From positions 1 to 9,206 of the forward strand of contig CAZYLT010000042.1 in NCBI GenBank assembly GCA_964648855.1: a stretch of DNA of 9,206 nt. The letters run 5' to 3'. This DNA is from an uncultured archaeon (GTDB lineage: Archaea; Asgardarchaeota; Thorarchaeia; Thorarchaeales; Thorarchaeaceae). This document shows positions 1,177 through 9,206 of this stretch, one piece after another. The notes beneath the pieces are model-generated. The model was not told the DNA's origin and made no database searches. It worked only from the letters and a program-made list of their open reading frames with translations. Both the position numbers and the translations under genes were made by a program. Each line of letters begins with the position of its first letter. Within the stretch, counting starts at the first letter, position 1.

Positions 1177-2253
1177 TCAATCTGTTTTGAGTATGATACG
1201 CTTATCTTCAACAATAGCCATAACCCTTCCCAGTCGACTCTCTTCAGGACCCATTGCTTCCCAAGCACTAGCAAGGTATGCGTCAACATCACCTGATGAT
1301 ATCTTTATGCACGGTGAGTAGACAAGAAGTTCTTCAATCAGCCGACCTATATTGGATATCTTAAATCGAGATTTTTCAATTTTCTTCAGATTGCCACCAT
1401 ATGTGGGCTGTTGGACATAGAGAGTTTCCATGCCTTCATTCTGTGCGGACTGACGTTGGTGCTTGTCAGCGGTAAGAAAGATTATTCTCGTGTTAGTATT
1501 CTTCTGAAGAAAGCTCACTTCATACCGAATCAGGCTGTCAAAAACCGCATCGACGAACTTGGTTTCAGTCTGAATGCGTTCTGAATAATACAAATGTGCG
1601 GGCATACTAATGATGACGCGATGCTTCTCCTGTAGCCGCCTCATCTCCCGCAGCCCCTTGATTCCAATTCGTCCCTGGTGTGATGCAACTCGATAGATTG
1701 GATCTTGCGAGTCGAAGGTTGGTTCTTTGTAACTGCCAGTCATTAGCCGATAGTAGTTTTGGTCACGGTTGTGAATACCTTCTAGTCGGTCAACAAAGGC
1801 GGATTTACGAAAAGTGTTGCTCAGCTTGTAATGGAGCTCATGGTCCACTCCTGATGGTACTACAAGGAAGTGAGGTAGTCGCTTATACGGTTCTGGATGA
1901 TGGAGATTCATGTAATTGGGATAGAAGTGACTTATCACGAGATTGGTGTCTAGTGCCAATGCAACTGTTCGATTGCCCGGATTCTCCAAGGCGTCGTCAA
2001 TAACCTTCGAAAGCTCTTCATCGTTCTTCGAAGGAATCATGCCGGCACGCCAGACCATCTGCACGAGTTCTCTGGTTTCTAATTTGCGTTCGATTTCCAG
2101 AAGGCATTTACCAAAATCTATAGACAACCTAATGACATGTCCATTGTACTCGTTCCATCCTCTTACCTCCAGAATCTTGCTCTCAGAGTATAAACCATTG
2201 AGCAAGTCTGTCAATGTTTCAGGCTGCGGGCTCGATCTTTTTGACTTCGGCAT
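1177..2253 (-). CDS. PIN-domain protein (putative RNase) with N- and C-terminal extensions
   Basis: PIN motifs: ALALDTNL (first Asp), VVPSGVDHEL (Glu), FDSLI (Asp), FLTADK...AQNEG (last Asp). Start uncertain (GTG 2268, ATG 2262 or ATG 2253); it overlaps the upstream CARF gene, suggesting translational coupling. Confidence 0.8.
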   Translation of the reverse strand: MPKSKRSSPQPETLTDLLNGLYSESKILEVRGWNEYNGHVIRLSIDFGKCLLEIERKLETRELVQMVWRAGMIPSKNDEELSKVIDDALENPGNRTVALALDTNLVISHFYPNYMNLHHPEPYKRLPHFLVVPSGVDHELHYKLSNTFRKSAFVDRLEGIHNRDQNYYRLMTGSYKEPTFDSQDPIYRVASHQGRIGIKGLREMRRLQEKHRVIISMPAHLYYSERIQTETKFVDAVFDSLIRYEVSFLQKNTNTRIIFLTADKHQRQSAQNEGMETLYVQQPTYGGNLKKIEKSRFKISNIGRLIEELLVYSPCIKISSGDVDAYLASAWEAMGPEESRLGRVMAIVEDKRIILKTD

Positions 2254-2788
2254 CCAAATCATCCACACTGATTAGTATCGTTTCAGCATCATCCAACCCC
2301 AGTTCATAGGCCTTCTTTGCCAGCTTCTCTCTTGAGAAGTCATGAAGGAGATAATACGAGATGAAGACCTCACGACCGTATTTTTGATGCACAAGAAGCG
2401 AGGCAACCAAGGCACTGCCCGTCATCATCTTCCGTCCGGCCGTCGTGTCTACAACCACTTGGCATCCCTCGGGGCATCGCTCCAACAATGCCTTTGCTAT
2501 GATTTTTGTGGCTACTGGAAGGTCTGCCTCAGGAATCCAGATGATATCGTCTGTCCTGAATTCAATCTTCTCAAATGCTTTCGGAGCCATTCGCGATGAT
2601 ATTTGTTTGCTCAGGTCACATACTTGCTGGATGATGTTCTCTCCCTTTGCGGATGGCTCTCCGTCATCCCAGGAGGTTATGAAGTACACCTCATCGATTT
2701 CAGGATCATTTTCTGACCTGAGATACCAAGATAACGAGTTTGCACACGCCTGTGGCGTCACACCAACCGTCATGAAATATTTCGACAT
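2219..2788 (-). CDS. Stand-alone CARF-domain protein (Crn1/Csx14-like; cyclic oligoadenylate binding or ring nuclease), ~189 aa
   Basis: ATG at 2788 preceded by a strong SD (AGGAGGT), so shorter than the 2866 ORF call. CARF motif I YFMTVGVTP, second strand IDEVYFITS, and motif II VVDTTAGRKMM (DxTxGRKxM). No HTH or nuclease domain fused. Confidence 0.82.
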   Translation of the reverse strand: MSKYFMTVGVTPQACANSLSWYLRSENDPEIDEVYFITSWDDGEPSAKGENIIQQVCDLSKQISSRMAPKAFEKIEFRTDDIIWIPEADLPVATKIIAKALLERCPEGCQVVVDTTAGRKMMTGSALVASLLVHQKYGREVFISYYLLHDFSREKLAKKAYELGLDDAETILISVDDLDAEVKKIEPAA

Positions 2789-2876
2789 CCAGTTACCTCC
2801 TAAACCTACCTCCCTTGGTGTGAATGATTGTATTAAAGCATTCGGGAATTGCACCTTTGTGACCAATTCTCAAAAC

Positions 2877-3239: not shown

Positions 3240-3302
3240 TGGCATGCCTGGAAGCGGAGTTATGCGGGCTCGTATGGGCAAAATTGATATGTTTGACGGG
3301 CT

Positions 3303-3338
3303 ATTGCAGAAGTGAATCCCGAAGAAAGGGAATTAGAC
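3303..3338 (+). CRISPR. Single CRISPR-type repeat ATTGCAGAAGTGAATCCCGAAGAAAGGGAATTAGAC (orphan repeat or mini-array)
   Basis: 36 nt with a CCC-gaagaaa-GGG hairpin followed by an 8-nt tail, the layout of Cas6-processed repeats. 24 nt (3310-3333) match 9183-9206 exactly in reverse complement, next to cas1/cas2. Confidence 0.6.
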
Positions 3339-3469
3339 ACTAAAGGTAGCCTTCTGTTCCTCTTAATATACGAAGATGAAAGACCGGTCTTAGGTAGTCG
3401 ATATGCCCCATTATTTCTGACGTTGCGAACCAGATCCTCTTCTCTATCTGATTTTCTCTAAATGACCAA

Positions 3470-3495
3470 GAAATCAAAGAATCTGCTTTGATTTC
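3470..3495. other. Perfect 10-bp stem hairpin/palindrome
   Basis: GAAATCAAAG-aatctg-CTTTGATTTC. Confidence 0.6.
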
Positions 3496-3555: not shown

Positions 3556-3582
3556 GATGGAAAGTTTCAGGGTACTCTCTTA
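3556..3582 (+). repeat. 27-bp direct repeat, copy 1 (upstream of micro-ORF)
   Basis: GATGGAAAGTTTCAGGGTACTCTCTTA; 26/27 identical to 5178-5204. Confidence 0.85.
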
Positions 3583-3617
3583 ATAGTTCAATATTCCATA
3601 TTATTTACAATGGTAGG

Positions 3618-3761
3618 ATGACCAAAATGGGCGATGAAGACATAATCTATATCGATGAAGAAGGTAACATTATTGAATCGAACGTTGTGGAGTCCTCAAC
3701 GGACGAGGAAAAGGGACCTACGACTGCCATAAGGGACAACTTGGGGGAGTTCGCGTTATAA
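3618..3761 (+). CDS. Small acidic peptide (47 aa; 44 aa from ATG 3627), candidate modifier/substrate of the E1-E2-JAB module
   Basis: MTKMGDEDIIYIDEEGNIIESNVVESSTDEEKGPTTAIRDNLGEFAL*. It has 13 D/E, protein-like composition, GGTAGGATG upstream of ATG 3627, and lies just downstream of the 27-bp element. Too short for the ORF track. Confidence 0.6.
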   Translation: MTKMGDEDIIYIDEEGNIIESNVVESSTDEEKGPTTAIRDNLGEFAL

Positions 3762-3912
3762 TCTTGATTGCATGAATTCAACGTCTGCAGTCCAAAGTGG
3801 AGCGTAATTCTAGCGCAACATTCGTGCTGTAGAAATATTGGCGACCAATGCGATAGCTCCGGTCATCATTGGTTGCATTTGCTTCAAGGAAGCAGCTGTT
3901 GAGGGAAAACAA

Positions 3913-5124
3913 GTGCTCGACTATGGAACAACATACACGAATCACGCGAAGATTTCGGGATTTCTATTTTCATTTCTTGTAAGCTATGTTTTGAGGTCAT
4001 CACCTCTCATATTATCACATCTATTCAATGAGTCAACACTTATGCTCTATTTATTCCCGTTCTGGATCGGCATCGAACTATTCCTCATCTCTGTTTTTGC
4101 TGTCTATGGATGGACAGGAGTTGTCCTATCAATACTGATAGACGCAAATCTAAGGCCAACTCTGCAAATTGACCCTATTGTCTTTTTAGTGTCAGAAGCG
4201 ATCACGGTGACGATTATAGCAATTAGCCATGCAAATAGATGGTACAAGGGAATAACCCCTAGATGGAAATCCATGCTAGTGGCGGCAATAGCACCGTTCC
4301 CAGGAGTACCAGTAGTAAGCCTAATCTTTCTCAAGCTGTTGGAGGTTCAAGTCACTACAACTGAAATCTTCCATCTTGCCTTAATGTGGATTGATTCTCT
4401 AGTTTTCATATGCATAACTGCACCAATATCTCTTCACATCTTCCTGAAGCGGGGTGGCAGTAGAAGAAATTGGGCACCGATATGGCTCATTCATTTTATT
4501 GAGGGCCCAATCCGGCCCAGCAGAGGGGTAGCCAATCCTGTTGAACAGGCATACTCGTCTCGCGTCGAGAGAAACTCGGCTCAGAAATATCGTATTTGGT
4601 GGGATTTTGAAAATGTATCCATGCCACCGAATGAAATACGTGATTTCATAAATAAGATACAGGGAGAAATGATTCCGGGGATGGTTTTTGCTGATTGGAA
4701 TCGCTTCTCCGACGGAATGTTGAAGGCGCTGTATCGGGCCATGGTGACTCCAGTTCATGTGCCGGATGACAGAGAAGATGCTGCTGACAAAGTAATGAAA
4801 TCGAAGATGGCACAGGTGAGGCATGAAGGAAATATTACCGAAGTAGTTGTGACAGGTGATCAAGGATTCTATGGGATTGTTCGCGATTGGGTTGAGGCTG
4901 GAGTGAGGGTATGGATTGTGACTCAAAACCAATGCTACAGCAGAAGCTTGGCACAAGTTGCTACTCTCCATTCAGAGATCTCAACATTTCCCAGATGTTC
5001 TTCAATTGGAGAAGCGGGTTATCAGTCTTCGATTGAAGATAATGTACGAATAATCTGTGACGCGTGCAATCATGATAATAACATTGGGAATCAAGTTTGT
5101 GAACGATGTAATACCAGGTTCTAG
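3913..5124 (+). CDS. Multi-pass membrane protein (MASE1-like) fused to a NYN (LabA/DUF88) RNase domain and a C-terminal zinc ribbon
   Basis: N-terminal ~5-6 hydrophobic helices with MASE1-like patterns (FPFWIGI...YGW; MWIDSL...TAP). NYN motifs IWWDFENV, FADW, EDAADK, VVVTGDQGF...GVRVWIV. C-terminal CDAC...CERC. Start is either GTG 3913 (GAGGG at 3901-3905) or TTG 3838. Confidence 0.8.
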   Translation: MLDYGTTYTNHAKISGFLFSFLVSYVLRSSPLILSHLFNESTLMLYLFPFWIGIELFLISVFAVYGWTGVVLSILIDANLRPTLQIDPIVFLVSEAITVTIIAISHANRWYKGITPRWKSMLVAAIAPFPGVPVVSLIFLKLLEVQVTTTEIFHLALMWIDSLVFICITAPISLHIFLKRGGSRRNWAPIWLIHFIEGPIRPSRGVANPVEQAYSSRVERNSAQKYRIWWDFENVSMPPNEIRDFINKIQGEMIPGMVFADWNRFSDGMLKALYRAMVTPVHVPDDREDAADKVMKSKMAQVRHEGNITEVVVTGDQGFYGIVRDWVEAGVRVWIVTQNQCYSRSLAQVATLHSEISTFPRCSSIGEAGYQSSIEDNVRIICDACNHDNNIGNQVCERCNTRF

Positions 5125-5177: not shown

Positions 5178-5204
5178 GATGGAAAGTTTCAGGGTGCTCT
5201 CTTA
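5178..5204 (+). repeat. 27-bp direct repeat, copy 2 (upstream of E2-E1-JAB operon)
   Basis: GATGGAAAGTTTCAGGGTGCTCTCTTA; 26/27 identical to 3556-3582. Confidence 0.85.
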
Positions 5205-5271
5205 TTTGTAAAGGGGTATACTGAGTATTGTAGGAACATGGAGGAGAAGAGCATGACAAAGGTGAAACACT

Positions 5272-5712
5272 TTGACTAAATCAGATTATCACCTGGCTGT
5301 GAATAAAGGGCTACTAATTACTGGTCGGGATCTCAATAGGACTCGATGGCGAGTGGAGTCAGAACGGCTCAGGCTATACTGTCCCGGCTGGAAACTGGAA
5401 TTAAGAAGACAGAATGGCGAAAAGACCATGACAAAAACGATGGGCTCGGTGAAGTGTGGTAGGAAGGCGTTCGACTTGATTATTAAGATTCCAAACCACT
5501 ATCCATACAAGATTCCCACAGTATTTACTCACAGATGGAGCACAGGAGACTCGCCTCATGTATACAACAATGGAGCACTCTGTGTTATGAAATCAGACCA
5601 GTGGAGGTCTATCTACTCACTTGCTTTAGTTGTCAAGAAGGCGACTGTCTGGATCCATAAATACCTCTCTTGGAAGAAGAAGAGTAGATGGCCAGGCAGG
5701 GCACAGGACTAG
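5272..5712 (+). CDS. Prokaryotic E2/UBC-like ubiquitin-conjugating enzyme
   Basis: UBC-fold signature IKIPNHYPYKIP, PHVYNNGALC (catalytic Cys), downstream W, and a W..KY..W....WPG tail typical of prokaryotic E2s. TTG start with GGTGA at 5261-5265. Confidence 0.8.
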   Translation: MTKSDYHLAVNKGLLITGRDLNRTRWRVESERLRLYCPGWKLELRRQNGEKTMTKTMGSVKCGRKAFDLIIKIPNHYPYKIPTVFTHRWSTGDSPHVYNNGALCVMKSDQWRSIYSLALVVKKATVWIHKYLSWKKKSRWPGRAQD

Positions 5713-5723
5713 GGGGAACCACG

Positions 5724-6551
5724 ATGGATTACAAGAGAATAGAATACATTCTTACGCCGGAGGAATTGGAATCAAAGGAAGTTCTCGTTGTCGGTCTTGG
5801 CAGCGGAGGAGCACCAGTTGTACAACATATGGGAATGAATGGTGTTCGGAATTGGCTGCTGTACGACCCAGATCGACTCGATGTGGTCAATCTTGTGAAG
5901 CACCCAGCCATGAGAAGTGAATTGGGCGAACTAAAAGTCAATATCATGGAGAAGTGGTTGCTAGATAGAAATCCCGAATCCAGAGTAAAGAGTTGTCCTG
6001 AGGATGTAATGCAGTCACCTGCTTTTGAGGAGGATGTAAAGGCTGCAGACATAGTAATATCAGCCTCCGATAGCATGCAAGTTCGGCAATATGTGAATCG
6101 GATTTGTGTTGATAACTCGACCATGTGTGTCACTGCAAACGTTTTCAGAACCGGGTTTGGTGGGGAGGTATTTAGCTACATTCCAGGTAAGACTGGCTGT
6201 TTTCAGTGTCTTCTCTTTATTAGCCAGAAGCAGGGATGGCATGCATTAGATTCATCAATAGACCTGTTGCCTGAAGAAGAAGAACATATTTACGGACTTG
6301 ATGAACGGGAATTCAAAGCGTCAGGTTTATCGATGGACATCGCGATTATATCATCCATTGCAGCAAAAAGGGCCCTTCGTCTGATTCTGCGGAACCCCAA
6401 CCCAAAGTTCTATCCCGAAGACCGTTCGAATTATATCATATTCTACATGAGAAGCATCTCTGGGTATCAAGCATTCTCAAGCGATAGATACTTCATTTCT
6501 CCACAGGCTCAATGCTTTTGCGCCCACCTAGAAGAAGGTGAGCCAGATTGA
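5724..6551 (+). CDS. ThiF/MoeB-family E1-like adenylyltransferase
   Basis: VLVVGLGSGG nucleotide-binding loop, DPDRLDVVNLVKH, GELKV, ASDS, GCFQC and a C-terminal CFC. ATG 5724 follows GGGGGA, 11 nt after the E2 stop. Confidence 0.92.
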   Translation: MDYKRIEYILTPEELESKEVLVVGLGSGGAPVVQHMGMNGVRNWLLYDPDRLDVVNLVKHPAMRSELGELKVNIMEKWLLDRNPESRVKSCPEDVMQSPAFEEDVKAADIVISASDSMQVRQYVNRICVDNSTMCVTANVFRTGFGGEVFSYIPGKTGCFQCLLFISQKQGWHALDSSIDLLPEEEEHIYGLDEREFKASGLSMDIAIISSIAAKRALRLILRNPNPKFYPEDRSNYIIFYMRSISGYQAFSSDRYFISPQAQCFCAHLEEGEPD

Positions 6552-6596: not shown

Positions 6597-7607
6597 GTGT
6601 ATAAGCTGCAGCACAAATCACCATTCATGACCTTAAACAGAAGACAAATGAGGATTGTAGTGGGGCTAGACCAAGTCAAAGTTAGCGACCGAATCCTGAG
6701 AAAGGCAATCGAACGAGCCCGATACAACAGAACAGTCGAAGTAGGTGGAATATTAATCGGCTTTATCGATGAAAGATCTTCTAGATTCGATTCCTATGGA
6801 ACACTCCGAGTCATAAACGAGATTCCCAGTGGCCCGAGAGCAGAACGAACTGCCACAAGTCTACATGGGGATTTAGAGTATCAAGAAAAGCAATTCGAGC
6901 GAGTTTTTCAGAGAGATAGAAGGGTGCACCATTTAGGAAGCTGGCACAGTCACGTAGCTAACGGAATGCAACATCTGAGCAATGGAGATTTGCAATCCTA
7001 TCAGAATATGGTCTGCTCTGAAAGGCATAGACATTCTTACTACTTTGCTTTGTTGCTTCTGCGGCTCCCAGTCTTCGGCATTTGTGACCATTCGGTTTTC
7101 AATTATTTCCGGTTTTATCTAATCCATCGTGACTTTCATACAATATGCTTTGAATTGGGCAGGGACTGCATTACCATAGAAGAACAACCAGAAGATTACT
7201 CGAATCTGATTCAGGATTATGAAGTATTTCAGCAACAAAGAATCACAGTCTTGAACAAGGAGCCAGCAGGCTGGGTTAATTCTAGCACTGGAAGGAAGTT
7301 TCTGAAAAACGATTCAAAGATTATGGATTCGTTGACAGAAACTATACCAATCCTTGAACAGGGCCCAATTCTTCTGAGAAGGGGAAGCACCTCCGGCCGT
7401 ATAGTCAGGACATTCTTTCTAGGAAGCCACAGGATTGAATATCAATATCCCGAAGAAACGCTAAATGGACGCATAACGATTGAAGTATTCATGAGTGGGG
7501 ATAGAACCGACTATGAGCGAGTTCTTAGAGTAAAGCTGAGTCCTGTTCCCTTACGATTTAAGATCTTTAGGATCATAATTCAGACCCTATCAGAAATGAA
7601 CGAGTAA
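6597..7607 (+). CDS. JAB/MPN+ (JAMM) metalloprotease with an uncharacterised C-terminal extension
   Basis: EVGGILIG, GPRAER, GSWHSH...LSNGD (E-x-HxH-x-SxxD). GTG start with GGAGG at 6586-6590. Confidence 0.9.
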   Translation: MYKLQHKSPFMTLNRRQMRIVVGLDQVKVSDRILRKAIERARYNRTVEVGGILIGFIDERSSRFDSYGTLRVINEIPSGPRAERTATSLHGDLEYQEKQFERVFQRDRRVHHLGSWHSHVANGMQHLSNGDLQSYQNMVCSERHRHSYYFALLLLRLPVFGICDHSVFNYFRFYLIHRDFHTICFELGRDCITIEEQPEDYSNLIQDYEVFQQQRITVLNKEPAGWVNSSTGRKFLKNDSKIMDSLTETIPILEQGPILLRRGSTSGRIVRTFFLGSHRIEYQYPEETLNGRITIEVFMSGDRTDYERVLRVKLSPVPLRFKIFRIIIQTLSEMNE

Positions 7608-7748: not shown

Positions 7749-8777
7749 ATGAGTTCAACGAAGAGTACAATTATCCTTACAGAGTTTGGCTCTTCCCTAA
7801 GAAAGCAGGGAAAAAGGTTTGTGATTAGCGGAGAGGATGGAGAGAAGAAAAAGATTGCCACCTGCAAGGTAGACAAGATAATGTTGCCTTTGCGAGGCTC
7901 AAGTGTATCAACCGATGCCCTTCTTCTTGCAATGACCGACTCTATTCCAGTATTATTGATACAAAGAAACGGAGCGCCAGTTGGATTTTTGAACAACCTT
8001 CTGAAGAAGGGAAATGTTGACCTACGAAGAAAACAGTATAATTTAAGTAAAAAGGACCGAGCAGTTGTGTTGGCCAAGTCATTCGTGCTGGGAAAGGTAC
8101 AGAATCAAATAGGGCTGCTAAAGCGAAAGGCTGCCAATAGAAAGAAATCCAAACCAGCCCTCACGAAAGAGCTTTTGCAAAACACAGAAAAAATGCAATC
8201 CATACTGGATGGATTAAGTGAACATGCAAGTCATGGAACTGAAGTGATGGATCGACTGTTTGGGATCGAAGGCAGCATTGCGGCACGATATTGGCAGTCC
8301 ATCCGGAGAATACTGCCCGATTATCTTTTATTCAAAGGACGCACAGGTCGCGATGCAAATGACCTAGTTAATTGCATGCTGAATTATGGCTATGCCATTT
8401 TGCAGAGTGAAATATTGATAGGTATCCTGGCAACCGGACTTGACCCATCTGTTGGAATCCTTCATTCTGACAAAAAGGGTAGAAATTCTTGCGTTCTTGA
8501 TTTGATGGAGGAGTTTAGACCTATTGTTGATAGTGCGATACTGAAAATTATTGTAACGAGTAATGAAAATCTCAGTCAACATATCGATGGTGGGCGGTTG
8601 AGTAGAGAAATGAGAAGGATGATTGCAGGTGCCATTACAAACAGGCTCTCTACTGAGACTCGATATGGGACAAACTCAAGGAAAATCAAGGCTATCATAT
8701 CAAAACAGGCACAGAAGCTTGCGGAATGCATTGGGCATGAAGAGAAAGAATACTCACCTTTCGTGGTTAGGTGGTGA
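7749..8777 (+). CDS. cas1: CRISPR-associated endonuclease Cas1
   Basis: SVSTDAL, LFGIEGSIAARYW, NCMLNYGYAIL, GLDPSVGILH, LDLMEEFRP; catalytic E/H/acidic residues are present. Confidence 0.97.
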   Translation: MSSTKSTIILTEFGSSLRKQGKRFVISGEDGEKKKIATCKVDKIMLPLRGSSVSTDALLLAMTDSIPVLLIQRNGAPVGFLNNLLKKGNVDLRRKQYNLSKKDRAVVLAKSFVLGKVQNQIGLLKRKAANRKKSKPALTKELLQNTEKMQSILDGLSEHASHGTEVMDRLFGIEGSIAARYWQSIRRILPDYLLFKGRTGRDANDLVNCMLNYGYAILQSEILIGILATGLDPSVGILHSDKKGRNSCVLDLMEEFRPIVDSAILKIIVTSNENLSQHIDGGRLSREMRRMIAGAITNRLSTETRYGTNSRKIKAIISKQAQKLAECIGHEEKEYSPFVVRW

Positions 8778-9073
8778 ACCAGATCCACCACATTGCCATC
8801 TATGACATCTCGAAGGATTCTCTCAGGAATCGAGTCGCAAACAAGCTGCTTGACTATGGCATGCAGAGAATACAGTTTAGTGCATTCATGGGTATTTTGT
8901 CATTATCCCAGAGGGAGCAGCTTACAAGAGAATTGAAGGAGATTTGCAACAACGCAAATGATAACGATTCGGTTTTTATTGTGCCCATCTGTGAGGTTTG
9001 CCTTGGCAAGTCTACCATCTTGGGATCTATTGACTTACAAAGCCTTGAACTCCCTCCTGTGATCATGGTATGA
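8771..9073 (+). CDS. cas2: CRISPR-associated endoribonuclease Cas2
   Basis: IAIYDIS...RNRVANKLLDYG MQRIQFSAFMG...DSV...PICEVC. Overlaps the cas1 stop (GTG at 8771 or 8774). Confidence 0.96.
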   Translation: MVNQIHHIAIYDISKDSLRNRVANKLLDYGMQRIQFSAFMGILSLSQREQLTRELKEICNNANDNDSVFIVPICEVCLGKSTILGSIDLQSLELPPVIMV

Positions 9074-9182
9074 CATATCCGTCATGGATTTCTTGGTCAT
9101 GCATCAATCTCAAGCAATCCCCCATCAAAGATCCAAATCTCAAGTTAGAAAGTTGATAGACAATTGTTCATTGGGCATGGAT

Positions 9183-9206
9183 ATTCCCTTTCTTCGGGAT
9201 TCACTT
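9183..9206 (-). CRISPR. Partial CRISPR-type repeat, probably the degenerate terminal repeat of an array continuing beyond the window
   Basis: Minus strand reads AAGTGAATCCCGAAGAAAGGGAAT, identical to 3310-3333, then diverges (ATCC vs TAGAC). It lies 110 nt after cas2 and is truncated by the window end. Confidence 0.55.

What the first reader, a model, noticed from the sequence alone, without database searches (positions are those of the whole stretch)
3618..3761. Unannotated acidic micro-protein whose C-terminus (DNLGEFA-L) resembles an E1-activated tail
Seen: 44-47 aa, 13 acidic residues, likely disordered, ending GEFAL*. Known: type II CBASS CD-NTases are activated at flexible tails ending in a small residue, often F-G/F-A (I recall Enterobacter cloacae CdnD ending ...TGRFA), and JAB proteases trim extensions to expose that residue. 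Pup is a precedent for a disordered acidic modifier, though it uses another ligase. Inference: JAB removes the Leu, E1 adenylates ...GEFA-COOH, and E2 transfers it, giving a fold-less ubiquitin-like tag. Alternatively it is a RiPP-like precursor for the ThiF enzyme.
Basis: partly seen in the sequence, partly recalled or inferred. Interest (0 to 1): 0.85.

Follow-up and report, generated by a model that had tools for sequence, protein, structure and literature searches.

The report
Mini peptide tag for archaeal E1-E2-JAB
The tiny acidic gene is real and conserved, is found only beside one ubiquitin-type E2/E1/JAB enzyme set in Thorarchaeota (Asgard archaea), and most likely encodes a ~40-residue non-ubiquitin peptide tag that relatives make as triple repeats or fused to the E2.

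Summary
Observation confirmed. Window 3618-3761 (+) is a 47-codon ORF (probably 44 aa from the ATG at 3627) with 13 acidic residues, ending GEFAL.

It is a gene. Against its orthologue in another genome, 27 of 36 differences fall on third codon positions (pS 0.97, pN 0.11). In 400 genomes of the phylum, it occurs in exactly the three that carry the close E2.

Relatives show the unit in three forms: single, three tandem units in one ORF, and three units fused in front of the E2. Each unit has an N-terminal hairpin (IDEEGN) and an invariant tail, AIRDxxGE[F/Y], followed by a small residue in 15 of 17 units. Free forms stop 1-4 residues after the tail.

E2 (invariant Cys), E1 and JAB (full JAMM motif) look active. 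A co-fold put the hairpin on an E1 beta-strand and the tail in the adenylation site (0.75 against 0.03 for the best control).

Best reading (about 0.55): a non-beta-grasp peptide modifier that JAB trims, E1 activates and E2 passes on. Whether the mature end is ...GEF or ...GEFA is open. No experiment exists and I found no paper.

The scan reached the same reading for the triple form in another genome.

The parts
3618..3761 (+). Micro-protein gene: one 'hairpin + tail' unit, 47 aa (44 aa if started at 3627). Hairpin IDEEGN around residues 9-21, acidic linker, tail AIRDNLGEF, then A-L-stop.
3556..3587 (+). 32-nt element holding the palindrome GAAAGTTTC, about 60 nt before the micro-gene start. 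Candidate shared operator or promoter element.
   Evidence: Direct repeat D1, 91% identical to 5178-5209. GAAA(G/C)TTTC lies at -57 to -64 before the micro-gene in G387 and G348 as well.
5178..5209 (+). Second copy of the 32-nt element, about 90 nt before the E2 start.
3838..5124 (+). Multi-pass membrane protein with a cytosolic NYN RNase domain and a C-terminal CxxC...CxxC zinc ribbon. Candidate effector or target. Relatives keep the membrane part and the ribbon but lack NYN.
   Evidence: Pfam NYN E 1e-6. Homologues sit next to the unit gene in G387, G348 and L036. The ribbon resembles the RanBP type only weakly.
5272..5712 (+). E2 (UBC fold, CBASS-type) with invariant PH.Y....LC.M, the catalytic Cys.
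   Evidence: Pfam UQ_con and Prok-E2_B, both weak. PF26395 E2-CBASS on relatives. PADLOC E2 and E1-E2 models. Invariant Cys. Confident fold matching E2 enzymes.
5724..6551 (+). Minimal ThiF-type E1 (275 aa; the ORF is open from 5688) with a GSGG nucleotide loop, invariant Asp116 and Arg142, and two Cys pairs.
   Evidence: Pfam ThiF 1e-32. Alignment A4. Nearest PDB relatives are MccB, ThiF, MoeB and UBA5. PADLOC Cap2-type E1-E2 6e-24.
6597..7607 (+). JAB/JAMM metalloprotease with a conserved ~190-aa C-terminal domain of unknown fold.
   Evidence: Pfam JAB. PADLOC JAB 5e-11. E48, H117, H119, S128 and D131 are invariant in 5 homologues.
7749..9073 (+). cas1 and cas2 (context), followed by a leader and the first CRISPR repeat at 9183-9206.
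3302..3480 (+). Lone CRISPR repeat (about 3302-3334) plus a leader-like stretch, an inverted copy of 9082-9206. Context only.
   Evidence: I1, I4. The same repeat forms arrays on contigs C9 and C1.
1177..2866 (-). CARF-like (2219-2866) and PIN (1177-2268) gene pair: CRISPR type III-style ancillary genes (context).
   Evidence: PADLOC CARF models 5e-7. Pfam PIN_4. The same pair is present in G387.

Best explanation
The micro-protein is the modifier (substrate) of a stand-alone E2 / E1 / JAB conjugation cassette of Thorarchaeota. It would be a ~40-residue acidic 'hairpin plus tail' peptide that takes the place of a ubiquitin-like beta-grasp protein.

Proposed steps:
1. The gene is transcribed from a promoter that carries the same 32-nt element as the E2-E1-JAB operon (element shown, regulation inferred).
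2. It is made as a precursor with a 1-4-residue C-terminal cap. In relatives it is made as three head-to-tail units, free or fused to the N-terminus of the E2. The JAB protease cuts at or just after the invariant GE[F/Y] to expose the reactive C-terminus (inferred, by analogy with BubCD cutting BubAB).
3. The E1 homodimer holds the N-terminal hairpin by beta-strand pairing with its strand 254-262. The tail enters the adenylation site of the partner protomer and is adenylated (predicted by co-folding only).
4. The peptide passes to the invariant E2 cysteine and then to a lysine of a target. The target may be the neighbouring membrane / zinc-ribbon (NYN RNase) protein or a viral protein (inferred).
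5. JAB can reverse the conjugation (inferred).

The setting next to CARF, PIN, NYN and cas1-cas2 genes suggests an antiviral or stress role.
For: Real, selected gene: codon-position differences 7/2/27, pS 0.97 against pN 0.11, and synonymous turnover of the tail motif across 14 units.

Strict linkage: in 400 genomes of the phylum, the unit occurs in exactly the three genomes that have a close E2 homologue, in three different gene orders.

Three architectures: single; three units in one 133-aa ORF; and three units fused to the E2 N-terminus in P0006, P0007, P0046 and P0047. The fused units sit where type I Bub systems carry their Ubl, which JAB cuts off (PMC11601596).

Unit features: every unit ends AIRDxxGE[F/Y] followed mostly by A/S/T. 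Free forms stop 1-4 residues later, as polyubiquitin caps do. In the fusion, the units are unstructured beads (pLDDT about 30) ahead of a confidently folded E2.

Enzymes look active: E2 Cys invariant, JAMM motif invariant, E1 nucleotide loop and Asp invariant.

Co-fold of E1 x2 + ATP + unit residues 4-45: score 0.75, best of 3 controls 0.03. That mark was reached by 58 of 80 solved complexes and 2 of 110 mismatched pairs. The runs agree in at least 52% of contacts, and partner pLDDT is at least 50. The tail residues E44 and F45 touch G26-G29, A114-D116, A138-V140 and R142.

Type II CBASS cyclase tails, handled by the same E2 and JAB families, typically end in Ala or Gly, e.g. ...GGFA (PMC11153139).
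Against: There is no biochemical or expression evidence.

Only about seven distinct loci are known, so the statistics are thin.

The co-fold used my own shallow alignments and a peptide that I cut at F45. It therefore cannot tell GEF from GEFA. It may also owe part of its score to likeness with solved E1-tail complexes (Cap2 with the cyclase tail, MccB with MccA).

The partner pLDDT is only 50-55, and the AIRDNL part has no confident contacts.

The residue after F is E in G387 and R in the last G348 unit. That fits badly with an Ala/Ser C-terminus. A bulky Phe or Tyr C-terminus would be unusual for an E1.

No target is known, and no E3 is present.

The nearest solved E1 relative is the RiPP enzyme MccB.
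Confidence: 0.55

Rival explanations
1. The unit is a non-covalent docking or regulatory module. Its hairpin tethers the E2 (when fused) or a regulator (when free) to the E1, and the tail occupies the adenylation groove as a pseudo-substrate or inhibitor. It is never conjugated.
For: The confident part of the co-fold interface is the hairpin on the E1 strand. In four relatives the units are part of the E2 polypeptide, and this minimal E1 has no E2-recruiting UFD domain. The residue after F is not strictly small.
Against: Free forms always stop 1-4 residues after the tail, which points to a need for a near-terminal carboxylate. Three tandem copies are not needed for tethering. In G387 the unit gene lies 4 kb from the E2. 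A conserved active JAB has no obvious substrate in this model.
Confidence: 0.2
2. The unit is a RiPP-like, multi-core precursor. The ThiF/MccB-like enzyme adenylates or otherwise modifies the peptide C-terminus to make a small bioactive product, and JAB acts as the leader or core-releasing protease.
For: The best solved relative of the E1 profile is MccB (E 4e-22), which adenylates a ribosomal peptide. The tandem repeats resemble multi-core precursors.
Against: A UBC-fold E2 with an invariant Cys is always present and is sometimes fused to the units. The E1 lacks the N-terminal peptide clamp of MccB; the match starts at MccB residue 107. No exporter, immunity or tailoring genes are conserved across the loci. 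The enzymes also match CBASS Cap2/Cap3 models.
Confidence: 0.12
3. The ORF is a chance open frame in a CRISPR-leader-adjacent spacer region and is not translated.
For: Short ORFs are abundant in the window. No RNA data exist.
Against: The third-position bias and pN far below pS, conservation in six other loci in other arrangements and as part of longer ORFs, and gene calls in public collections.
Confidence: 0.02

Closest known systems
Type II CBASS conjugation module (Cap2 E1-E2 fusion, Cap3 JAB) acting on the CD-NTase C-terminal tail
   Same: The E2 belongs to the same Pfam family (PF26395 E2-CBASS), and E1 and JAB match PADLOC Cap2 and Cap3 models. In both, the substrate is not a beta-grasp protein but a flexible conserved tail, and that tail ends in an aromatic plus a small residue (...GGFA in B. 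cereus). JAB antagonises or processes.
   Different: There is no cyclase and no cyclic-nucleotide effector. E1 and E2 are separate genes. The 'substrate' is reduced to a 40-residue hairpin-plus-tail peptide that occurs in tandem arrays and as E2 fusions. The host is archaeal (Asgard).
Type I Bub operons (BubAB Ubl-E2 fusion cut by the JAB domain of BubCD; PMC11601596)
   Same: The modifier is encoded as an N-terminal fusion to the E2 and must be released by a JAB peptidase. Four relatives here have that layout.
   Different: BubA is a two-domain beta-grasp protein that ends in Gly, BubB uses Ser rather than Cys, and JAB is fused to E1. Here the units are ~43-aa unstructured repeats, the E2 has Cys, and JAB stands alone.
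Polyubiquitin and ubiquitin-fusion precursors of eukaryotes
   Same: Both have head-to-tail repeats with an invariant C-terminal motif at each junction, a variable cap after the last unit, and a need for a deubiquitinase-type protease.
   Different: The units have no beta-grasp fold and no Gly-Gly; they are half the size.
Pup (prokaryotic ubiquitin-like protein) of actinobacteria
   Same: Both are small, acidic, largely disordered modifiers.
   Different: Pup is ligated by the glutamine-synthetase-like PafA through a side-chain carboxylate. It involves no E1, E2 or JAB.
MccB-MccA (microcin C7) peptide adenylation
   Same: A ThiF-fold enzyme activates the C-terminus of a short ribosomal peptide. 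MccB is the nearest solved relative of this E1 by sequence.
   Different: MccB has an N-terminal peptide clamp, acts on a C-terminal Asn, and has no E2 or JAB partners.

Membership tests
Type II CBASS (Cap2/Cap3/CD-NTase) | A CD-NTase cyclase whose C-terminal tail is the conjugated substrate | tested here: not met
   No nucleotidyltransferase or cyclase hit in the Pfam or PADLOC scans of the 10 main ORFs of 100 aa or more plus the micro-ORF, nor in the Pfam scans of the related loci.
Type II CBASS (Cap2/Cap3/CD-NTase) | E1 and E2 domains fused in one Cap2 protein | tested here: not met
   E2 (5272-5712) and E1 (5724-6551) are separate genes in all loci seen.
Type II CBASS (Cap2/Cap3/CD-NTase) | CBASS-type E2 fold with a catalytic Cys, and a JAB (Cap3-like) peptidase with the JAMM motif | tested here: met
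   PF26395 on relatives. PADLOC E2 and JAB hits. Invariant Cys. Invariant E, HxH, S and D.
Bil (BilABCD) and other Ubl-conjugation systems | A beta-grasp ubiquitin-like modifier ending in Gly | tested here: not met
   No Ubl domain appears in any ORF. The unit is 40-45 aa and is modelled as one hairpin plus coil. Its end is GE[F/Y]+A/S, not Gly.
Type I Bub | Ubl-E2 fusion, JAB-E1 fusion, and a catalytic Ser in the E2 | tested here: not met
   The E2 has Cys. JAB and E1 are separate. Only the 'modifier fused before the E2' layout is shared.
Pup-PafA | PafA/Dop ligase and a C-terminal GGQ/E | tested here: not met
   No Pup-ligase family hit in the window. The tail differs.
MccB-type RiPP adenylation | ThiF-fold enzyme with an N-terminal peptide clamp; precursor ending in Asn | tested here: not met
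   The E1 aligns to MccB only from residue 107 on, so there is no clamp. The units end in F/Y plus a small residue.
Functional class: E1-activated protein or peptide modifier | C-terminus adenylated by E1, thioester on E2, isopeptide to a target | not testable with these tools
   There is only a co-fold that places the tail in the adenylation site (0.75 against a best control of 0.03). It needs biochemistry.

The most novel reading that the evidence does not exclude
Asgard archaea use a ~40-residue, non-beta-grasp 'hairpin-plus-tail' peptide as a true covalent protein tag. The tag is made as a poly-tag or E2-fused precursor and trimmed by a JAB protease. A minimal E1 activates it at an aromatic or small C-terminus, and a CBASS-type E2 transfers it. 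This would be a minimal ubiquitin-like system in which the E1-docking element and the reactive tail are all that is left (or all that was first there) of a modifier. Here it is wired to a membrane NYN RNase and a CRISPR locus.
Probability: 0.4. Interest if true: 0.9.

Novelty: new variant of a known kind. Interest (0 to 1): 0.75.

Why it matters
If the reading holds, the minimal needs of an E1/E2-conjugated modifier shrink to a docking hairpin plus a conserved tail, with no ubiquitin fold. That bears on how ubiquitin-type tagging arose, in the archaeal lineage closest to eukaryotes. It also links the tail-only logic of bacterial CBASS to the poly-precursor logic of ubiquitin. It adds a defence-island cassette next to CRISPR genes, with a clear and cheap set of bench tests using four small proteins. 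A 40-residue genetically encoded tag with its own ligase set could also be useful as a tool.

Tried and rejected
- Pfam, PADLOC, Rfam and ESM Atlas give nothing for the micro-protein or its DNA.
- Sequencing runs: no RNA holder listed. The only DNA holders are one microbial-mat study that is probably the source of this DNA.
- The sigma-70 promoter and terminator scan is uninformative for an archaeon.
- A word-index search with the E2 for longer (fused) forms found none. The fusions came from the exhaustive profile search and from an alignment query.
- Most hits of the exhaustive search (long proteins matching only profile positions 5-30) are generic 'YVDEEGNVI' hairpin repeats. I rejected them as non-family.
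- The idea that the C-terminal zinc ribbon of the membrane protein is a ubiquitin-binding RanBP2/NZF finger has only sub-threshold Pfam support (E 0.003-0.006). I keep it as a lead only.
- A similar 47-aa ORF before a distant E2 in G119 has no second copy in its family, so I did not use it as evidence.
- The opposite-strand ORF 3647-3781 is rejected because the third-position pattern fits the + frame.
- Foldseek on the fusion model gave only weak E2 matches (E about 1e-3). That is enough to show a UBC fold, not enough to place the subfamily.

Full report
**What is there.** The window is a whole 9206-nt contig of a 94.6%-complete MAG. A sister genome's contig is titled Candidatus Thorarchaeota, which fits earlier scan notes on this genome.

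The gene map comes:
- an unknown 282-aa protein, whose G387 homologue weakly resembles a RiboL-PSP HEPN;
- a PIN gene and a CARF-like gene on the minus strand;
- a lone CRISPR repeat with a leader-like stretch (about 3302-3480);
- the micro-ORF (3618-3761);
- a membrane protein with an NYN RNase domain and a C-terminal zinc ribbon (3838-5124);
- an E2 (5272-5712), a ThiF-type E1 (5724-6551) and a JAB protease (6597-7607);
- cas1 and cas2, then a leader and the first repeat of an array.

**Is it a gene?** A short ORF is not evidence by itself; the window has 93 ORFs of 30 aa or more. A six-frame search of 400 genomes of the phylum found two real relatives, both in the same family.
- G387 has a single unit at 78% identity.
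- G348 has three head-to-tail units in one 133-aa ORF.

Between G000 and G387, the 36 nucleotide differences over 41 codons fall 7/2/27 on codon positions 1/2/3. Synonymous sites are saturated (pS 0.97) while pN is 0.11. Flanking DNA aligns poorly. Across 14 units with DNA from six loci, the tail motif is kept while 63% of the identical-residue codon pairs use different codons. This is protein-level purifying selection in the + frame.

**The family and its three architectures.** An exhaustive profile search of 1.84 billion representatives found two 320-aa proteins (P0006, P0007). In each, three units are fused directly in front of an E2 domain homologous to the window's E2. A pattern scan of metagenomes and an alignment query added two more such fusions (L036 = P0046, and P0047). 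The other hits are generic hairpin repeats, not family members.

Each unit has three parts:
- an N-terminal hairpin motif (V-x-I-D-E-E-G-N-V-I);
- a variable acidic or polar linker;
- an almost invariant tail, T-A-I-R-D-x-x-G-E-[F/Y].

The next residue is A, S or T in 15 of 17 units. It is E in G387 and R, followed by the stop, in the last G348 unit. In all three free forms the ORF stops 1-4 residues after the F. In the fusions, the E2 domain starts 2-4 residues after the last unit.

AlphaFold2 models the single unit as a hairpin plus coil (pLDDT 70). In a fusion, it models the units as unstructured (pLDDT about 30) ahead of a confident E2 (pLDDT 80-95). That E2 matches UBC enzymes, though weakly.

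**Linkage.** In the same 400 genomes, close homologues of the E2 (E 1e-39 or better) occur only in G000, G348 and G387, exactly the three with the unit. The same-genus genome lacks both. The three loci have three gene orders.
- G000: unit, membrane protein, E2, E1, JAB.
- G348: membrane protein, triple unit, E2, E1, JAB.
- G387: E2, E1, JAB, radical SAM, CARF-like, PIN, HEPN-like, unit, membrane protein, cas1, cas2.

The metagenomic fusions are followed by E1 and JAB. The constant set is therefore unit + E2 + E1 + JAB. The membrane / zinc-ribbon protein is constant in the four Thorarchaeota-type loci.

A 32-nt element with the palindrome GAAAGTTTC lies before both the micro-gene and the E2 in the window. 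The palindrome recurs about 60 nt before the unit gene in G387 and G348. This suggests shared control.

**Are the enzymes fit for conjugation?**
- The E2 keeps an invariant PH.Y....LC.M, including the catalytic Cys. Its relatives carry PF26395 (E2-CBASS).
- The E1 keeps the GSGG loop, Asp116, Arg142 and two Cys pairs. Its nearest solved relatives are MccB, ThiF, MoeB and UBA5, with Cap2 further away. It also matches PADLOC Cap2 models at 6e-24.
- The JAB keeps the whole JAMM motif in five homologues, plus a conserved C-terminal domain of unknown fold.

**Does the unit fit the E1?** I ran one co-fold: two E1 copies, two ATP, and unit residues 4-45, using my own alignments. It scored 0.75 (runs 0.74, 0.78 and 0.75) against 0.03 for the best of three controls. 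That mark was reached by 58 of 80 solved complexes and 2 of 110 mismatched pairs. The runs share at least 52% of contacts, and partner pLDDT is at least 50.

Residues 5-18 of the hairpin pair with E1 strand D254-A262 of one protomer. E44 and F45 touch G26-G29, A114-D116, A138-V140 and R142 of the other protomer, which is the adenylation site.

Caveats:
- the alignments are shallow and ATP rode along, so the calibration holds only roughly;
- solved E1-tail complexes exist, so likeness may help the score;
- I chose the cut at F45, so the model cannot tell GEF from GEFA.

**Comparison with known systems.**
- Type II CBASS uses the same E2 and JAB families on a flexible cyclase tail whose last residue is typically Ala or Gly. 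The B. cereus cyclase ends ...GGFA, and A331E abolishes immunity (PMC11153139). The cyclase C-terminus sits adenylated in the Cap2 E1 site (bioRxiv 2022.03.31.486616).
- Type I Bub systems encode their Ubl as an N-terminal fusion to the E2, and a JAB domain cuts it free after a conserved Gly. JAB peptidases of these pathways are described as exposing reactive C-termini (PMC11601596).

The present family combines the tail-only substrate of CBASS with the fusion and poly-precursor logic of Bub and polyubiquitin. It has no cyclase, no beta-grasp, separate E1, E2 and JAB genes, and an archaeal host.

Full-text searches found no paper on it. The scan reached the same reading for the G348 triple form, and it noted other peptide-type cassettes in other Asgard genomes. 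Those are notes, not independent evidence.

A JAB-trimmed, E1-activated, E2-carried peptide modifier is the best reading (about 0.55), but nothing is shown biochemically.

Two options remain for the mature end:
- ...GE[F/Y] has no exceptions among the units.
- ...GEF[A/S/T] matches CBASS tails, but G387 and one G348 unit do not fit it.

The rivals are a non-covalent E1/E2 docking or regulatory module (0.2), a RiPP-like precursor (0.12) and a chance ORF (0.02).

Noticed in passing
window 3302-3480 and 9082-9206: A lone CRISPR repeat with a leader-like stretch lies in inverted orientation to the leader and first repeat after cas2, so the unit-NYN-E2-E1-JAB-cas1-cas2 block sits between two inverted leader-repeat units. 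The same repeat forms arrays on contigs C9 and C1 of the genome. The simplest reading is a decayed second array.
   Followed up: partly
window 3556-3587 and 5178-5209; L029 about 7045-7065; L030 about 6148: A 32-nt direct repeat with the palindrome GAAAGTTTC lies before both the micro-gene and the E2. The palindrome is kept about 60 nt upstream of the unit gene in two other genomes. It is a candidate operator for an unknown regulator; one metagenomic locus has a winged-helix gene just upstream.
   Followed up: partly
window 1177-2866 (-): A CARF-like 215-aa gene overlaps the start of a 363-aa PIN gene by 50 nt. The same split pair occurs in G387 (L030 3493-5116). It looks like a two-gene version of CARF-PIN ancillary effectors of type III CRISPR.
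   Followed up: no
window 3838-5124; L029 6164-7015; L030 6497-7258; L036 300-1139: The conserved membrane protein ends in a C-x2-C-x3-N-x6-C-x2-C ribbon that weakly resembles RanBP2/NZF-type fingers (E 0.003-0.006, below threshold). Only the window's copy has an NYN RNase inserted between the membrane part and the ribbon.
   Followed up: partly
L040 318-461 (G119, another Asgard family): A 47-aa ORF sits directly before a distant E2, followed by a long E1. It has a similar I-Y-I-D-K-N-G-R-I hairpin motif and ends in Trp-Tyr-stop. No second copy was found in its family, so it is unverified, but it hints at a wider class of hairpin-plus-aromatic-tail micro-ORFs.
   Followed up: partly
L031 4636-6984: A second E2-E1-JAB-like cassette without units lies 0.9 kb downstream of the unit-E2-E1-JAB cassette on the same metagenomic contig. 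The paralogous enzyme sets may share one modifier.
   Followed up: no
L030 2321-3370 (G387): A radical-SAM, MoaA-like gene directly follows the JAB in G387. It is absent from the other loci.
   Followed up: no
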